Below, in pieces: positions 4,006 to 9,151 of a stretch of 9,151 nt of DNA (position 1 is its first letter; each line of letters begins with the position of its first letter). Origin of the DNA: Promethearchaeota archaeon (GTDB taxonomy: Archaea; Asgardarchaeota; Odinarchaeia; Odinarchaeales; JBHLKK01); NCBI GenBank assembly GCA_048939465.1, contig JBHLPL010000079.1, positions 1-9,151 of the forward strand, read 5' to 3'. Both the position numbers and the translations under genes were made by a program. Below the pieces are notes generated by a model. It had not been told where the DNA came from, searched no databases, and saw only the letters and a list, made by a program, of their open reading frames with translations.

Positions 4006-4091
4006 TGGTAGCCCGGAGGAGATTCGAACTCCTGTCAGCGGGTCCAAAGCCCGCTATGCTTAGCCATTATTGGCCACTACACCACCGGGCT
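4006..4091 (-). tRNA. tRNA-Gln(UUG) with encoded CCA and a 10-nt insert in the D-loop
   Basis: Minus strand reads AGCCCGG TG GTGT AGTGGCCAA[TAATGGCTAA] GCAT A GCGGG CTTTGGA CCCGC TGAC AGGAG TTCGAAT CTCCT CCGGGCT A CCA. Acceptor, anticodon and T stems pair fully. A1:U72 is typical of archaeal tRNA-Gln. Length is 86 nt, or 76 nt without the insert. Confidence 0.95.
4060..4069 (-). other. Putative non-canonical tRNA intron at position 21/22 (TAATGGCTAA)
   Basis: Exon GGCC (18-20a) pairs with insert GGCT as a 4-bp helix. Cutting 2 nt 3' of each helix strand removes exactly 10 nt and restores the D-loop AGTGGCCAA. Confidence 0.6.
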
Positions 4092-4161
4092 ATAGTTTCT
4101 GGTGTCTTGTACTAATTTGTAATCAATACCACTTCTTTTTAAGAATTCTCTTTTGGTCTGC

Positions 4162-4168
4162 AAAAAAA
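4162..4168 (-). terminator. Oligo-T terminator of the ribophorin-like gene
   Basis: T7 on the minus strand, 4 nt after the TAA stop at 4173-4175. Confidence 0.6.
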
Positions 4169-4172
4169 GGGA

Positions 4173-5918
4173 TTAGAGAGTCTCTTCTTTTAACCGGATT
4201 AGCAACTTATCCATTCTTGATGATGTCTTTTTTAGTTTGTTCTCAAGATCACGTCGAAGTTTTTGATATGCTGCCGCGCTTATACGGTGCCTACGGTATC
4301 TCGATTCCAGGTGTACTAGGGATGTTTTTACACTTTCTCTTTCCGCTTCCCTTATTTCCAGTTGTTTTACTGTGTGCGCGTATCTTCCTCCTGCTTTGCT
4401 TAGTTTGGGCCTCAGCTTGGCAATGTCTTTCTCTATACCTGCTATATTCTTCTTGTACGAAGCAGTCTGTTTCTGGTACTCCCGTTTCTTGATCTTCCGG
4501 CGTTGGAATCTCTCATCCAGCTTTCCCATTTCAAGCAATAGGGCGATTTTTTCTTCATACAAACTGCAGAATTGACGAAGAACGGGATACGCTACAGCAC
4601 GCTCCACGACAACCAATGGCTCAGCCTCTGGACGTAATTTCTTTGTCGTTACGTATGCTGCTGCAATCACACCTATAATTAGTGTAAACAACAACGGTCG
4701 AGTGAGTGCAGCTAACAGGGACGGATTATAGCTTATCTCTAGGCTGATTTGATGGAAGGAGGTAACATTGTACGATCCATAGGTGATTATTTCTTGTGCT
4801 TCTGACGAAACATTTGCAGGAGGATTTGTAGAGGTTGATGAGCCCCCAGGTGGCAATATTACAACAATTTCCTGATGCTGGATAGTCCAGTTGATGGTAT
4901 TCGGGATGATTGTTAGCCTCGGTGTTCCTGATTCTACGCTCTGAATTGTATCAATTGGCACTCTGTAGTTTACGTAGAACTTGTAGGTTTGATTGGTCCA
5001 GAGGACATACCTGAAGGTTATTTCAAGAATGTTCATATCAGAATCATTGAGCTCTATAATGGACATGGAAATACTGCCGAGATCATCAGAGACGGTTATG
5101 TCATTCGCGTCTTTGGAAACCGGTACCTCGTGAGTACTAACGGCATTGGAAGACATTCTAATGTTTTTCACGACCAGCTCATAGGTATCCTTGATATTGA
5201 CTATTCCCCACGTGCCTACGTTGACTTCACGTTGAGCCAAGATATATTTGATCAACGGTTTTTCCGTGTAAGTCCACTCTACGTATAAAGCGGTAAAATT
5301 CAGCGGTAGAATATCTGTCCCGTTGAATTCTCTTGGCGTCGGTTCAACTATCGAGCCATTTACAGGAGCCCTAATCGATACATTACAGAAAGTTGTGTTA
5401 TAGGGTGTGGTTGGATAGGCATATAGGTCTGCATAATACCTACCTTCCCAACGCGGAAGGACCATGTCACCAAAGACCAGAATAAGGTTATATGTGTAGT
5501 TTTCACCAGGAGCTACTGAATCAGAGAGTGTAATGGTCCAGGCTGTGTTGTTTTCATCAAGTGAGTAACTCGCAGAAATAGGAAGAGATGCACCAGTTCC
5601 ATTATATGCGGACATGTAATAGAGATAGCCGGTCAGATTACTTCTGAGCGTAGCAATTACAAAATCTGTAGAGCTAGATCCAGTATTGTTTACAACAAAA
5701 GTATCATTCACAGCTATCAGCCCGTACCCATTTATTTGCACCGTCCTGTTTACTATGTTATTGATTAGAAAATCTTGAGGTGGAGTGGGCTGCTGTGTTG
5801 TAGATGTGGGGCTCTGAATTAATGTAGCAATTGCGAATGTGAGTACTGCCAAGATAACCAGTGTCTTTAGTCTCTTCAATGGAACACCCCAGCATCTTTT
5901 TCTCAGGAGGGATTTCAT
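4173..5918 (-). CDS. Ribophorin I (Rpn1/Ost1)-like type I membrane glycoprotein, 581 aa
   Basis: Architecture: basic-then-hydrophobic signal region (about aa 15-34), beta-rich extracellular part with 17 N-x-S/T sequons (hand count), TM helix about aa 401-423, charged helical cytoplasmic tail. Motifs parallel eukaryotic ribophorin I as I recall it: LINNIVNRTV (vs LINEDVKRTV), REVNVGTWGIVNIKDTY (vs RVIEVSHWGNIAVEE), DDLGSIS (vs DEIGNVS), FRYVLWTNQTYKFYVNYRVP (vs [20 protein letters not shown]), IVVILPPG (vs KIILPEG). Confidence 0.75.
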   Translation of the reverse strand: MKSLLRKRCWGVPLKRLKTLVILAVLTFAIATLIQSPTSTTQQPTPPQDFLINNIVNRTVQINGYGLIAVNDTFVVNNTGSSSTDFVIATLRSNLTGYLYYMSAYNGTGASLPISASYSLDENNTAWTITLSDSVAPGENYTYNLILVFGDMVLPRWEGRYYADLYAYPTTPYNTTFCNVSIRAPVNGSIVEPTPREFNGTDILPLNFTALYVEWTYTEKPLIKYILAQREVNVGTWGIVNIKDTYELVVKNIRMSSNAVSTHEVPVSKDANDITVSDDLGSISMSIIELNDSDMNILEITFRYVLWTNQTYKFYVNYRVPIDTIQSVESGTPRLTIIPNTINWTIQHQEIVVILPPGGSSTSTNPPANVSSEAQEIITYGSYNVTSFHQISLEISYNPSLLAALTRPLLFTLIIGVIAAAYVTTKKLRPEAEPLVVVERAVAYPVLRQFCSLYEEKIALLLEMGKLDERFQRRKIKKREYQKQTASYKKNIAGIEKDIAKLRPKLSKAGGRYAHTVKQLEIREAERESVKTSLVHLESRYRRHRISAAAYQKLRRDLENKLKKTSSRMDKLLIRLKEETL

Positions 5919-5977
5919 TCTTTATCGATTGTGTCCTGCCCCCGATGCAATTACCTCAACTACTTCAACTATAAGCA

Positions 5978-5992
5978 ATTATAAGTTTTTGT
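5978..5992 (-). promoter_or_regulatory. Candidate BRE/TATA for the ribophorin-like gene
   Basis: Minus strand reads ACAAAAA-CTTATAAT, about 60 nt upstream of ATG5918. Confidence 0.5.
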
Positions 5993-6152
5993 ATCGAGGC
6001 ATCAGATTCAAGTAATCTCTAGGTTTTTGTTAATGTTTGGTCACAATGACCCTATAAATGCCTTTCACTTCTTTATTATGTCTGTGAAATCCACCTTACT
6101 GAGTTGTGTTAACACACATAAAAAAAGGAGCTATTTTAACCTTTGGTGTTTT

Positions 6153-6200
6153 GAGAAAAAACTAATATAGAAAACTCTTCCTTAGGAAGCAGTGGGTGGA
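6153..6200 (+). promoter_or_regulatory. Candidate gcvPA promoter and ribosome-binding site
   Basis: GAGAAAAAA (BRE-like) then CTAATATAG (6162-6170, TATA-like). The palindrome CTTCCT-T-AGGAAG is at 6177-6189 and SD-like GGTGGA at 6195-6200 lies 8 nt before ATG6209. Confidence 0.5.
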
Positions 6201-6208
6201 ATAATGCC

Positions 6209-7635
6209 ATGAATAATACAAATCCATTTATTCCAAATTCGTCGGAATCCATAAAGAAAGAAATGTTGGAAGAAGTTGGCCTTAGTAGCATTGAAGAGCT
6301 CTATAAGGATATCCCACCAGACCTGAGATTAGACCGTAAATTAGATCTTCCTGGTCCTCTTTCTGAACACGATGTTTATCGAGCAGTAAAAGAGATTCTT
6401 GGTAGGAACTGCACTACAGAAGATATGCCAATATTCCTCGGAGCGGGCGTATATCCCCATTACATTCCTGCGGTTGTCAAATCTATGACTAGTCGGGGAG
6501 AATTCTTAACGGCTTATACCCCATATGACTGATCTAGTGATCATTCAGGGGAAATCAAGCAGAGATATCCCAAGGAATACTTCAGGCGTTCTTTGAGTAC
6601 CAGAGCCTGATGGCAGAGCTCGCAGATATCGAAGTAGTAAATGCTTCAATGTACGATTGGGCCTCAGCTTTGGGAGAAGCTGCATTGATGTCAAAGCGAT
6701 TAACCAAACGTAACACTTTCTTAGTACCCCACATAATTCATCCAGAGAGACTGGCTACATTGAGAACTTATGCCACGCCGGTCGGGATAGATTTAGTGGA
6801 AGTTGGGTTTAGCAGTGAATCAGGTCAGTTGGACATCGAAGATCTGAAGAGCAAAATCTCTGAGGACGTAGCTGGAGTATACATAGAAAATCCCTCATAT
6901 CTTGGTTTTTTGGAAACGCAAGTGGATGAAATAGCAGAACTCACGCATGATAATAAAAGCCTCCTAATAGCAGGCGTGGATCCCACATCTCTTGGAGTCA
7001 TAAGACCACCAGGAGATTACGATGCCGATATAATCATTGGGGAGGGGCAACCACTGGGGAGTCCGATGAATTTTGGAGGGCCGCTTCTGGGCATATTTGG
7101 GTGTAAGGACGATAGACGAATGATTAGGCATCTGCCGGGACGCTTAATTGGCATGACCACTACCGAAGACGGTAAGAAACGGGGGTTTACTATGACGCTA
7201 GGTTCAAGGGAACAGCACATCAGAAGGGAAAAAGCAACATCAAACATCTGTACGAACGAAGCTCTGGGTTGCGTGGCGGCCGCGGTTTACTTAACTTTGC
7301 TCGGTCCAGTAGGCATGCAAAAACTTGGAGAGATTATTCTTCACAATTCACATTATGCTATGAAAAAAATAGGGGAAATTACCGGAGTCGAAACACCTTT
7401 GTTTGAAGCGCCTCACTTTAAGGAATTTACAGTGAATGTCGACGAAACCGGAGTCGGCATAAGTGATATTCAGAAGAGTCTTATTGATTTAGGTGTTCAT
7501 GGAGGAAAAATAATCAAAAAGGAGTTTCCTGAATTCGGGGAGACCTCGCTCTTCTGTGTTACGGAAATACATACTCGAGAAGATATCCTTAAACTGGTCG
7601 ATGCATTGAGCGAAATTGTTGGAGGAGGAACTTGA
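6209..7635 (+). CDS. gcvPA: Glycine cleavage system P protein subunit 1, intron-containing: join(6209..6524,6554..7635), 465 aa after splicing
   Basis: Exon 1 has PFIPN, FLGAGVYPHYIP and SRGEFLTAYTP. Exon 2 has (Y)QAEISQGILQAFFEYQSLMAEL, NASMYD, GEGQPLG, FGGP, LPGRLIG and REQHIRREKATSNICTN. The joined length is 316+1082=1398 nt, a multiple of 3, with one terminal stop. Confidence 0.93.
6525..6553 (+). other. 29-nt BHB-type mRNA intron in gcvPA (ATGACTGATCTAGTGATCATTCAGGGGAA)
   Basis: Central helix CCCC(6519-6522):GGGG(6548-6551); 3-nt bulges AT|A (6523-6525) and AA|A (6552-6554); inner hairpin 6526-6547 with 8 Watson-Crick pairs, one C/T mismatch and a TAGT loop; outer pairs A6518:T6555 and GCTT(6512-6515):AAGC(6557-6560). 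It contains the in-frame TGA (6530-6532) and shifts the frame. Confidence 0.9.
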
Positions 7636-9151
7636 ATGATTAAGGAGTTTCATCAGGCAAAATGGAATGAACCTGTCATTTTTGAATTAGGACATAGAGG
7701 GAAAATCGGGCATCGACTTCGAGATGTGGACAAAATAATAAGAGAGGAAGTGGGAGACGTTCTGAGTAAGATTCCGTCAAACATGAGGAGAAAGAAGTCT
7801 CCTAATCTTCCGGAGATTTCTGAGGTGGAGGCAGTAAGGCATTTCACGCGTCTTTCACAGATGAATTGGGGGGTAGATTGTGGTATATATCCTCTTGGAA
7901 GCTGCACTATGAAGTATAGTCCAAAGATCAACGAAGTTATTGCCAATTTGGGTCATGTAGCAAATATCCATCCGTACCAAGATGAAAGAACAATTCAAGG
8001 TGCTTTGGAGATCATGTATAAGCTGGAGAGCTGGTTTGCGGAGATAACTGGAACACATCGTGTAACACTACAGCCTGCCGCTGGAGCTCACGGTGAATTC
8101 ACCGGCATACAGATCATTCGTGCATATCATGAACTTAACAACCAGCTTGATCAAAGGACTGAAATCGTAGTGCCAGACTCAGCCCATGGCACTAATCCGG
8201 CCAGCGCAGTGATGGGGGGATTTGACTGCGTTGTTGTTCCAACAAATGAGAACGGACTGGTCGATATAGACGCTTTGCAAAATGCAGTCTCGGAAAATAC
8301 CGCAGGACTTATGCTAACCAATCCAAATACACTAGGGCTTTTCGAAAGGGAGATAGGTGATATTTCAAAAATCCTACACAGTGCAGGAGCCCTGCTATAC
8401 TATGACGGAGCCAATCTAAATGCCATTCTGGGGAAAGTTCGTCCAGGAGACATGGGCTTTGATATCGTTCACGTTAACGTTCATAAAACGTTTTCGACAC
8501 CTCATGGGGGAGGCGGACCTGGTGCGGGTCCCTTGGGAGTTTCCAGCGAGCTTGAGAAGTTCCTGCCCGTCCCCCTTGTAGAGTTTGATGGTGAAAAGTA
8601 CTTTTTTGATTACGACCGTCCTCACTCCATCGGGAAGGTGAAGGGATTCTATGGCAACTTCGCAGTTATCGTAAGAGCCTTCGCTTACATCCTATCAATG
8701 GGACCGACGGGATTAGAAGAAGTGGCAGAGAATTCTGTCTTAAACGCCAACTACATAGCTCGGAAATTGCTAAAAACAGAGGGATATGAACTACCATATG
8801 CCCCTAAGACTCCAAGAAAACATGAGGTAGTTTTCAGTACCACACCGCTCTTGCAAAAGACTCACATTTCGGCATTGAATGTCTCCAAAAGACTGCTCGA
8901 TTATGGTGTTCACGCTCCCACAAATTACTTTCCATTGATTGTACACGAGGCTTTGATGATAGAACCTACTGAAACTGAACCAGAGGAAGAGTTGAATCGC
9001 TTTGTAGATGCACTAAAGAAGATTTCTGAAGAGGCTTTTACAAATCCAGAACTCGTGCTAAGTGCTCCCCATAATACAAGCGTTTCAAAACTAGATGAAG
9101 TAAAGGCAGCTCATCCAAAGACTATGCGCCTATCTTGGCGAATGAAAGAGA
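7636..9151 (+). CDS. gcvPB: Glycine cleavage system P protein subunit 2 (3'-partial, open to the window end; missing from the ORF track because it has no stop)
   Basis: ATG directly after the gcvPA TGA, preceded by GGAGGAGG. My manual translation gives 505 uninterrupted codons with EVEAVRHFTRLS, YPLGSCTMKYSPK, LQPAAGAHGE, PDSAHGTNPASA, YYDGANLNA, the PLP-lysine motif HKTFSTPHGGGGPG (Lys codon 8485-8487) and LMIEPTETE. Confidence 0.97.
   Translation, partial: MIKEFHQAKWNEPVIFELGHRGKIGHRLRDVDKIIREEVGDVLSKIPSNMRRKKSPNLPEISEVEAVRHFTRLSQMNWGVDCGIYPLGSCTMKYSPKINEVIANLGHVANIHPYQDERTIQGALEIMYKLESWFAEITGTHRVTLQPAAGAHGEFTGIQIIRAYHELNNQLDQRTEIVVPDSAHGTNPASAVMGGFDCVVVPTNENGLVDIDALQNAVSENTAGLMLTNPNTLGLFEREIGDISKILHSAGALLYYDGANLNAILGKVRPGDMGFDIVHVNVHKTFSTPHGGGGPGAGPLGVSSELEKFLPVPLVEFDGEKYFFDYDRPHSIGKVKGFYGNFAVIVRAFAYILSMGPTGLEEVAENSVLNANYIARKLLKTEGYELPYAPKTPRKHEVVFSTTPLLQKTHISALNVSKRLLDYGVHAPTNYFPLIVHEALMIEPTETEPEEELNRFVDALKKISEEAFTNPELVLSAPHNTSVSKLDEVKAAHPKTMRLSWRMKE

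What the first reader, a model, noticed from the sequence alone, without database searches (positions are those of the whole stretch)
4006..6560. Two unusual endonuclease-type introns within 2.5 kb suggest a genome-wide micro-intron system
Seen: one non-canonical tRNA insert and one mRNA BHB insert in a 9-kb window. Both are tiny, and both end with a helix strand followed by AA at the 3' cut. Established: relaxed substrates are processed by heterotetrameric (alpha-beta)2 or epsilon2-type EndA enzymes. Inference: this lineage may carry many BHB micro-introns in mRNAs that are annotated as frameshifts or split genes.
Basis: inference. Interest (0 to 1): 0.75.

Follow-up and report, generated by a model that had tools for sequence, protein, structure and literature searches.

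The report
tRNA-type mini-introns in Asgard protein genes
This uncultured Asgard (Odinarchaeia) archaeon carries tiny tRNA-style introns in a tRNA gene, in the glycine-cleavage gene gcvPA and in at least eleven other protein genes, so many of its mRNAs very probably have to be cut and rejoined by the tRNA-splicing enzymes, something published for only one archaeal protein gene (cbf5).

Summary
Both inserts exist and both fit endonuclease-type introns.

- **gcvPA:** bases 6525-6553 (29 nt) interrupt the motif TPYQAEISQG. They fold as a 4-bp helix (CCCC/GGGG) between two 3-nt bulges. Cutting after the second bulge base restores the frame exactly. Four same-order genomes carry a 29-30 nt insert at the same codon, with different, compensated inner hairpins. 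More distant Asgard genomes lack it.
- **tRNA-Gln(UUG), 4006-4091, minus strand:** 10 extra D-loop bases (4060-4069) form a bulge-helix-loop. Odinarchaeum-type orthologues lack them. Removing them gives a standard 76-nt tRNA.
- **Genome-wide inference holds.** I verified 16 such introns (22-32 nt) in 12 genes of this genome: gcvPA, gatA x2, ahcY x5, aIF5B, kae1, an EF-2 paralogue, pyrG, a DRG-like GTPase, an MtaD-like gene, an aminotransferase and a radical SAM gene.
- **Length behaviour:** 6 of 16 lengths are multiples of three. Same-genus relatives differ by 1-3-nt indels inside the inserts.
- **Enzymes:** the genome encodes a catalytic EndA with a Crenarchaea-type specificity loop, a His-less EndA paralogue, and two RtcB ligases.
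- **Gap:** no RNA data were available, so splicing is inferred.

Earlier notes of this scan already reported the same system on other contigs of this genome and in related genomes. I re-tested most of those claims independently.

The parts
4006..4091 (-). tRNA-Gln(UUG) gene with encoded CCA. It is the only UUG-anticodon Gln tRNA gene found in the genome.
   Evidence: After the 10 nt are removed, ARAGORN calls a 76-nt tRNA-Gln(ttg).
4060..4069 (-). 10-nt D-loop intron UAAUGGCUAA, lying between A21 and G22. The registers 4061-4070 and 4062-4071 give the same product.
   Evidence: Absent from orthologues in G003-G006. Kept in same-genus G001 and G002, with two changes in G001.
4062..4075 (-). Bulge-helix-loop. 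Helix GGCC (4072-4075) pairs with GGCU (4062-4065) and closes a 6-nt loop. The 5' cut lies 2 nt into the loop (AA|U). The 3' cut lies after AA (4060-4061), before G22.
   Evidence: Fold. The tRNA-Gln(CUG) gene on contig C134 has a 10-nt insert at the same site with helix GGUC:GAUC, a compensatory C-G to U-A change. G007 has a 26-nt insert at the same site ending GGCUAA.
6209..6524 (+). gcvPA exon 1 (Met1 to the first two bases of Tyr106)
   Evidence: Pfam GDC-P profile positions 4-100; tblastn.
6525..6553 (+). 29-nt BHB intron in gcvPA. It holds an in-frame TGA at 6530-6532.
6519..6522 (+). 5' strand (CCCC) of the central 4-bp helix, lying in exon 1 and followed by the bulge AU|A
   Evidence: Invariant in all five genomes that carry the intron.
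6548..6551 (+). 3' strand (GGGG) of the central helix, followed by the bulge AA|A
6554..7635 (+). gcvPA exon 2
   Evidence: Pfam GDC-P profile positions 120-428. The joined frame reads TPYQAEISQGILQAFFEYQ.
7636..9150 (+). gcvPB, the downstream partner gene, which runs off the contig end
   Evidence: Pfam GcvP2_C and GDC-P.

Best explanation
Both inserts are endonuclease-type (BHB-family) introns. After transcription, a broad-specificity heterotetrameric EndA binds the 4-bp helix with its flanking 3-nt bulges. That enzyme would consist of a catalytic alpha subunit with a Crenarchaea-type specificity loop and a His-less structural paralogue. In the tRNA, the motif is one bulge plus a hairpin loop. 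EndA cuts after the second unpaired base on each side, and RtcB joins the exons. In gcvPA this removes 29 nt, including a stop codon, and rebuilds the codons for TPYQAEISQG. In tRNA-Gln it restores a normal 9-nt D-loop. The same process serves at least 15 further 22-32-nt introns in 11 other protein genes of this genome. mRNA splicing by the tRNA machinery is therefore a genome-wide layer of gene expression in this Odinarchaeia lineage. Shown here: the sequence geometry, frame restoration, comparative conservation and the presence of the enzymes. Inferred: the cleavage and ligation themselves.
For: (1) Geometry and exact frame restoration at gcvPA.

(2) Four same-order genomes carry a 29-30-nt insert at the same codon. 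The CCCC/GGGG helix and the bulges AU|A and AN|A are the same, but the inner hairpins are unrelated. L013 versus L016 shows G-C to A-U and G-C to G-U changes. One insert is 30 nt and carries an in-frame TAG. Twenty-three other Asgard genomes read straight through, with TPYQ(A/P)E seen directly in four of them.

(3) Sixteen introns in 12 genes sit at homology-defined breakpoints inside conserved motifs. Examples are MDEFA^MGSS, GSDTGG^SIRQPA, EE^TTTGV, WDFD^N, NTGH^FNVE, GGI^TQHIGA, GPGL^GPCLR, ERG^ITIK and CNFKCAH^CQN. Fourteen of the 16 have at least 3 of 4 central pairs and at least 3 inner pairs in the exact register, against about 0.6% per register in controls.

(4) Lengths are 22-32 nt and 6 of 16 are divisible by three, as expected for sequence under no reading-frame constraint (for fifteen introns; for the 30-nt radical SAM intron).

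(5) In same-genus genomes at 91-92% identity, the ahcY inserts are 22/20/21 nt and 30/30/32 nt, and the gatA insert is 32 versus 29 nt. All indels lie in hairpin loops.

(6) EndA alpha matches A. pernix 3P1Z_B at 1.5e-44, with the catalytic residues and the K44 equivalent kept. The second paralogue lacks the His. Two RtcB genes are present. The specificity loop is what lets EndA cut D-loop and bulge-helix-loop introns (PMC3241643).

(7) The inserts are present in DNA contigs of independent studies.

(8) Twenty of 24 detected tRNA genes are longer than 85 nt.
Against: There is no RNA evidence of any kind, because no RNA run holds the sequence.

The gcvPA fold is not unusually stable (z = -1.4) and its outer helix is weak.

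Several introns are relaxed. Four have one mismatch in the central helix: gatA-1, gatA-2, ahcY-1 and EF-2. pyrG and aIF5B have an interrupted inner helix.

Structure-only scans show no excess of BHB motifs over controls, so the case rests on homology plus geometry.

The tRNA intron is only 10 nt, and its 5' cut lies in a loop opposite a 3x3 internal loop.

The genome is a MAG of 152 contigs with 3.8% estimated contamination.
Confidence: 0.85

Rival explanations
1. The interrupted genes are pseudogenes, or the inserts are sequencing or assembly errors.
For: The genome is a fragmented MAG. Three apparent gene splits in it are only 10-N scaffold gaps, on C31, C20 and C116. One plain +1 frameshift exists on C106.
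Against: The same inserts stand in contigs of other studies and in up to six other genomes. They hit single-copy core genes: aIF5B, kae1, pyrG, ahcY and gcvPA. Flanking exons are under strong conservation while the insert interiors vary. Every insert has cut sites that restore the frame.
Confidence: 0.03
2. The inserts stay in the mRNA and are skipped by the ribosome (translational bypassing, as in phage T4 gene 60 or the yeast mitochondrial byp elements), or the gene is expressed as two polypeptides. The tRNA would simply have an enlarged D-loop.
For: The inserts are short hairpins, and most carry a stop codon just after the 5' junction, as bypass elements do. There is no RNA evidence to exclude this.
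Against: No matching take-off and landing codons flank the gcvPA insert or its relatives. The conserved features are the 4-bp helix and the 3-nt bulges, which bypassing does not need. One ahcY insert (27 nt) has no stop. Exon 2 of gcvPA has no start codon before 6610, so a second polypeptide would lack AEISQGILQAFFEYQSL. The same geometry occurs in tRNA genes, where translation plays no part. A 19-nt D-loop that sequesters G18 and G19 in a helix would not fold as a tRNA.
Confidence: 0.05
3. The inserts are BHB introns, but splicing is partial or conditional. They would act as regulatory switches or as selfish elements, rather than as constitutively removed spacers.
For: They lie in catalytic motifs of translation, methyl-cycle and nucleotide genes. 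ahcY has five of them. In Haloferax, removal of a 5' UTR BHB intron appears to be needed for efficient expression of the gene (PMC7714728). Nineteen nt of ahcY intron 5 recur in an intergenic stretch on C11.
Against: There are no data on splicing efficiency. The introns share no sequence family. Position in conserved motifs may partly reflect how they were detected, since alignments are best there.
Confidence: 0.25

Closest known systems
cbf5 pre-mRNA BHB intron of Crenarchaeota (Watanabe 2002; Yoshinari 2006; Yokobori 2009, PMC2738675)
   Same: It is a BHB intron inside a protein-coding sequence of an archaeon with a heteromeric, broad-specificity EndA. It is gained and lost among relatives.
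   Different: cbf5 is one gene with one intron, in Crenarchaeota. Here there are at least 16 introns in at least 12 genes, up to five per gene, one 15-nt micro-exon, and an Asgard host. PMC7714728 (2020) states that cbf5 was the only coding-sequence case reported to that date.
BHB intron in the 5' UTR of HVO_1309, Haloferax volcanii (PMC7714728)
   Same: It is an mRNA substrate of EndA, shown by circRNA-seq and in vitro cleavage.
   Different: It lies in a UTR and is 46 nt long, so it does not interrupt a reading frame. The enzyme is a homodimeric EndA of narrow specificity.
Non-canonical and multiple tRNA introns of Thermoproteales and of Asgard archaea (Sugahara 2008; PMC11291895; bioRxiv 10.64898/2026.10.13.758758)
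   Same: D-arm introns are missed by standard tRNA finders, most tRNA genes are interrupted, and two EndA paralogues are present.
   Different: Those reports concern tRNA genes of Atabeyarchaeia, Freyrarchaeia and Jordiarchaeia. The preprint never uses the word mRNA and does not mention Odinarchaeia. The insert here, at 10 nt, sits at that study's lower size limit.
HAC1/XBP1 unconventional mRNA splicing in eukaryotes (Ire1 plus tRNA ligase or RtcB)
   Same: It is spliceosome-independent. A small frame-shifting intron flanked by stem-loops is cut out by a protein endonuclease, and the exons are joined by the tRNA ligase. This rests on my own knowledge and on PMC4090602.
   Different: The nuclease is Ire1, not a Sen/EndA enzyme. 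There is one regulated substrate per genome and no BHB.
Translational bypass elements (T4 gene 60; byps of Magnusiomyces mitochondria)
   Same: They are short hairpin inserts of no fixed frame inside conserved genes.
   Different: They need matched take-off and landing codons and are not removed from the RNA. Such codons are not seen here.

Membership tests
Archaeal endonuclease-type (BHB) intron: gcvPA insert | A 4-bp central helix flanked by two 3-nt bulges on opposite strands | tested here: met
   CCCC:GGGG with bulges AUA and AAA. The 3' bulge is closed by only one A-U pair, so the outer helix is relaxed.
Archaeal endonuclease-type (BHB) intron: gcvPA insert | Cuts after the second base of each bulge give a functional product | tested here: met
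   Joining 6524 to 6554 gives TPYQAEISQG in frame. The 465-aa product aligns over its full length with intact homologues.
Archaeal endonuclease-type (BHB) intron: gcvPA insert | Structure kept among relatives while sequence changes (covariation; length free of the triplet rule) | tested here: met
   Five genomes carry inner helices of different sequence. L013 versus L016 shows compensatory changes. Lengths are 29 and 30 nt.
Archaeal endonuclease-type (BHB) intron: gcvPA insert | Excised from the RNA in vivo or in vitro by EndA, with exons ligated | not testable with these tools
   No RNA run holds the sequence.
Archaeal endonuclease-type intron: tRNA-Gln D-loop insert | BHB or an accepted relaxed form (hBH, HBh', bulge-helix-loop), with removal giving a canonical tRNA | tested here: met
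   A bulge-helix-loop: GGCC:GGCU, loop AAUAAU, 3' AA|G. Removal gives a 76-nt tRNA-Gln identical in its D-arm to G003-G006. The strand opposite the 3' bulge is also unpaired (AGU), so this is not a strict bulge.
(alpha-beta)2 broad-specificity EndA | Two different subunits: one catalytic (Tyr/His/Lys) and one structural without a full triad | tested here: met
   The C90 protein keeps YKDLR, DHS and RKKF. The C139 protein has VAK where the catalytic His stands. Actual assembly into a tetramer was not tested.
(alpha-beta)2 broad-specificity EndA | A specificity loop (CSL) with the conserved Lys that allows D-loop and bulge-helix-loop cleavage | tested here: met
   The alignment to A. pernix alpha shows a loop of equal length. 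K44 aligns with K and R46 with K. The loop's function is taken from PMC3241643.
RtcB-type 3'-phosphate RNA ligase | An RtcB gene is present in the genome | tested here: met
   There are two loci, at 506 and 327 bits. Activity was not tested.
Translational bypass element | Identical take-off and landing codons flanking the gap | tested here: not met
   None is present at gcvPA in the window or in the four relatives.

The most novel reading that the evidence does not exclude
mRNA splicing by the tRNA endonuclease and RtcB may be more than a tolerated oddity. It could be an actively spreading and possibly regulated layer of gene expression in a lineage of Asgard archaea. Under this reading, introns are repeatedly gained at conserved catalytic-motif codons, perhaps by reverse endonuclease/ligase reactions, and they tie the output of translation, methyl-cycle and nucleotide genes to splicing capacity. 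That would be a prokaryotic counterpart of HAC1/XBP1-type splicing in the closest archaeal relatives of eukaryotes.
Probability: 0.2. Interest if true: 0.95.

Novelty: new variant of a known kind. Interest (0 to 1): 0.85.

Why it matters
In print, protein-gene introns removed by the tRNA-splicing enzymes are a curiosity of one crenarchaeal gene. This genome has at least 16 of them in core genes, and related genomes share several.

That has three consequences.
- Such genes are probably mis-annotated as frameshifted, split or pseudogenes in Asgard MAGs. This affects metabolic reconstructions and any attempt to express the proteins (the actin gene of G003, for example, is interrupted).
- EndA and RtcB become essential for mRNA expression, not only for tRNA and rRNA.
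- The archaeal relatives of eukaryotes turn out to include lineages in which interrupted protein genes are routine. This gives a testable system for how protein-dependent introns are gained, kept and possibly used for regulation.

Tried and rejected
1. A structure-only genome scan for BHB motifs that fuse open frames gave about 18,600 hits, no more than with cut sites shifted by one base. Counts of strong motifs equal those in the reversed genome. The motif is too short to be found without homology.

2. In-frame, stop-free insertions relative to G003 carry BHB motifs no more often than control windows: 20 of 137, against 13.7% in controls. Only inserts with stops or frameshifts at highly conserved sites stand out.

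3. Candidates in an epimerase (C124) and the V-ATPase A subunit (C46) were rejected, because tblastn shows uninterrupted alignments. A split in a lipoate-ligase paralogue (C135) is left open.

4. Splits on C31, C20 and C116 are 10-N scaffold gaps.

5. 'Shared' candidates with identical length in both genomes and nonsense peptides are conserved non-coding frames, not introns.

6. RNA evidence: no RNA holder is listed for the window. Only DNA contigs could be laid.

7. The introns are not a repeat family. Only chance-level matches occur elsewhere, apart from one 19-nt match.

Full report
**Where the window lies.** The window is a whole 9,151-bp contig (C150) of a 1.96-Mb MAG. The MAG has 152 contigs, 43% G+C, 91% completeness and 3.8% contamination. 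The genes are Hsp20, an ArsR-type regulator, GrpE, DnaK, a tRNA on the minus strand, a ribophorin-I-like protein, gcvPA in two pieces, and gcvPB. The nearest named GcvPA sequences come from Odinarchaeota and Baldrarchaeota MAGs at 67% identity. One same-order relative, G003, is a closed 1,418,269-bp genome, and I fetched all of it.

**The gcvPA insert.** ORFs 6209-6532 and 6610-7635 match consecutive parts of Pfam GDC-P.
- Removing 6525-6553 gives a 465-aa protein that reads TPYQAEISQG across the joint. It aligns in one piece with 23 uninterrupted Asgard homologues.
- The minimum-free-energy fold and direct reading give the same structure. Helix CCCC (6519-6522) pairs with GGGG (6548-6551). 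The 5' bulge is AU|A. The inner hairpin abuts the helix directly. The 3' bulge is AA|A.
- With cuts after the second bulge base, which is the rule for archaeal BHB motifs, the frame is restored exactly.
- The fold energy alone is unremarkable (z = -1.4) and the outer helix is weak.

**Comparative evidence for gcvPA.** All four species of the neighbouring family (G003-G006) have an insert at the same codon.
- It is 29 nt in three of them. In the fourth it is 30 nt with an in-frame TAG.
- The CCCC/GGGG helix and the bulges AU|A and AN|A are the same in all.
- The inner hairpins differ in sequence, and L013 versus L016 shows compensatory changes.
- Genomes of other Asgard families read straight through.
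- DNA contigs of other studies, including a 17.7-kb mangrove contig, cover the region without gaps. The insert is therefore real DNA and not an assembly fault.

**The tRNA.** ARAGORN miscalls it and Rfam barely detects it, because 14 bases do not fit the D-loop.
- The gene is tRNA-Gln(UUG), at 4006-4091 on the minus strand.
- Orthologues in G003-G006 read AGUGGCCAA|GCAU. Here UAAUGGCUAA (4060-4069) stands between these two parts.
- The insert forms the helix GGCC:GGCU around a 6-nt loop and ends in AA before G22. Both cuts lie two bases 3' of a helix strand, which is bulge-helix-loop geometry.
- The tRNA-Gln(CUG) gene of the same genome (C134) has a different 10-nt insert at the same site with helix GGUC:GAUC, a compensatory change.
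- A more distant Asgard genome (G007) has a 26-nt insert at the same site with the same ends.
- Same-genus genomes keep the insert.
- After removal, ARAGORN calls a normal 76-nt tRNA-Gln.
- No other UUG-anticodon tRNA-Gln gene was found.

**Is it genome-wide?** A motif-only scan is useless, because the counts equal those of the controls. Homology works. I searched the stop-to-stop ORFs of G003 against this genome and the reverse. I also tested junction peptides of BHB candidates for ungapped alignments that span the joint. After discarding scaffold gaps and false positives, 16 introns in 12 genes remain. The coordinates of 15 are; the radical SAM intron is.

| Gene | Intron length (nt) |
|---|---|
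| gcvPA | 29 |
| gatA | 32 and 29 |
| ahcY | 28, 32, 27, 30, 22 |
| MtaD-like deaminase | 27 |
| aIF5B | 29 |
| kae1 | 25 |
| DRG-like GTPase | 24 |
| EF-2 paralogue | 31 |
| class-III aminotransferase | 30 |
| pyrG | 31 |
| radical SAM gene | 30 |

- In ahcY, a 15-nt micro-exon lies between the last two introns.
- Each intron sits at a breakpoint defined by homology inside a conserved motif. Each has the helix and bulges in the register that restores the frame.
- Fourteen of the 16 have at least 3 of 4 central pairs and at least 3 inner pairs. pyrG and aIF5B have interrupted inner helices.
- The control rate is about 0.6% per register.
- Six of 16 lengths are multiples of three.
- In the 15 introns tabulated, the base before the last is always A (AA 8, AG 5, AU 2) and the first intron base is A in 12.
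- The gcvPA, kae1, gatA-2 and radical SAM sites are also interrupted in G003, with different lengths at three of them (29/29, 25/28, 29/30 and 30/29 nt). The rest are intact there.
- G003 has a 34-nt intron of its own in the C-terminal actin motif PPERMYS^VWIGGS.

**Behaviour among close relatives.** In two same-genus genomes at 91-92% DNA identity, ahcY intron 5 is 22, 20 and 21 nt and intron 4 is 30, 30 and 32 nt. gatA intron 1 is 32 versus 29 nt. All indels lie in hairpin loops, while the flanking exons keep their frame. This pattern makes sense only if the inserts are removed before translation.

**The enzymes.**
- There are two EndA paralogues. The 204-aa protein from C90 is closest to the catalytic alpha subunit of the A. 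pernix (alpha-beta)2 enzyme (1.5e-44). It keeps Tyr, His and Lys. It also has a loop of the same length as the Crenarchaea-specific loop, with K44 kept and R46 replaced by K. That loop is what allows D-loop and bulge-helix-loop introns to be cut (PMC3241643).
- The 191-aa protein from C139 has no catalytic His.
- Two RtcB genes are present, one apparently with a large in-frame insertion.
- Of 24 tRNA genes found by Rfam, 20 are longer than 85 nt.

**Literature.**
- PMC7714728 (2020) states that the only BHB intron reported in an archaeal coding sequence is in cbf5, and it adds one 5' UTR intron.
- Papers on Asgard tRNA introns (PMC11291895; bioRxiv 10.64898/2026.10.13.758758) do not treat mRNA.
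- Searches for Asgard mRNA introns found nothing.

**Earlier notes of this scan.** Other agents have already described the same system on other contigs of this genome and in related genomes. I had found gatA-1, the five ahcY introns and aIF5B before reading those notes. I took kae1, pyrG and gatA-2 as leads from them and verified these myself. UPF0147 was not re-tested.

**Verdict.** What is missing is RNA evidence.

Noticed in passing
window 4173-5918 (-): A 581-aa protein matches Pfam Ribophorin_I (3.9e-18). This is a subunit of the eukaryote-type oligosaccharyltransferase and fits an Asgard origin.
   Followed up: no
G000:C31:2961-5708 (-), loci L003 and L005: One of the two RtcB genes is a 973-aa open frame. 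In it, Pfam RtcB positions 1-57 and 45-426 lie about 1.4 kb apart, which looks like an intein inside the ligase of the splicing pathway.
   Followed up: no
G003:C1 about 535,640-535,680 (+): The actin gene of the closed same-order genome carries a 34-nt BHB intron (GTAC TC|A ... GTAC AA|A) in the motif PPERMYS^VWIGGSILASL. The actin gene of the window's genome (C38:18286-19471) is intact.
   Followed up: partly
G000:C11:22897-22915 (-): Nineteen nt that are identical to the 3' part of ahcY intron 5, up to its exact 3' end, recur in a stretch with stops in all frames. There is no BHB there, and no other intron has such a copy.
   Followed up: partly
G000:C118 (low-coordinate end) and G000:C24 (end near 7574): The ahcY gene is split over two contigs whose ends overlap by about 40 nt inside intron 3. 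The assembly broke in the most intron-dense gene.
   Followed up: partly
G000:C134:29158-29269 (-): The tRNA-Gln(CUG) gene has two inserts: a 10-nt D-loop insert (AAAAGAUCAA) at the same site as in the window, and a roughly 29-nt insert after the anticodon loop.
   Followed up: partly
L196 (G007:C36) about 832-931: A tRNA-Gln(CUG) gene of another Asgard family has a 26-nt D-loop insert at the same position, with the same ends (GGCCAA| ... GGCUAA|GCAU). The site is therefore old or recurrent.
   Followed up: partly
window 4006-7635; G003:C1:823,480-828,393: tRNA-Gln(UUG) lies a few kb upstream of gcvPA in both families, and also in G005 and G006. Local gene order is thus conserved around both introns.
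   Followed up: no
G003:C1 about 541,770-542,680 (+): A gene with several paralogues in the window's genome (C38, C58, C84, C127, C128) shows a conserved -1 frame change. This is probably a transposase with programmed frameshifting, not an intron.
   Followed up: no
G000:C77:34681-34886 (-): A 201-nt in-frame stretch is present that both G003 homologues lack. It encodes hydrophobic segments, so it is an ordinary insertion rather than an intron.
   Followed up: no
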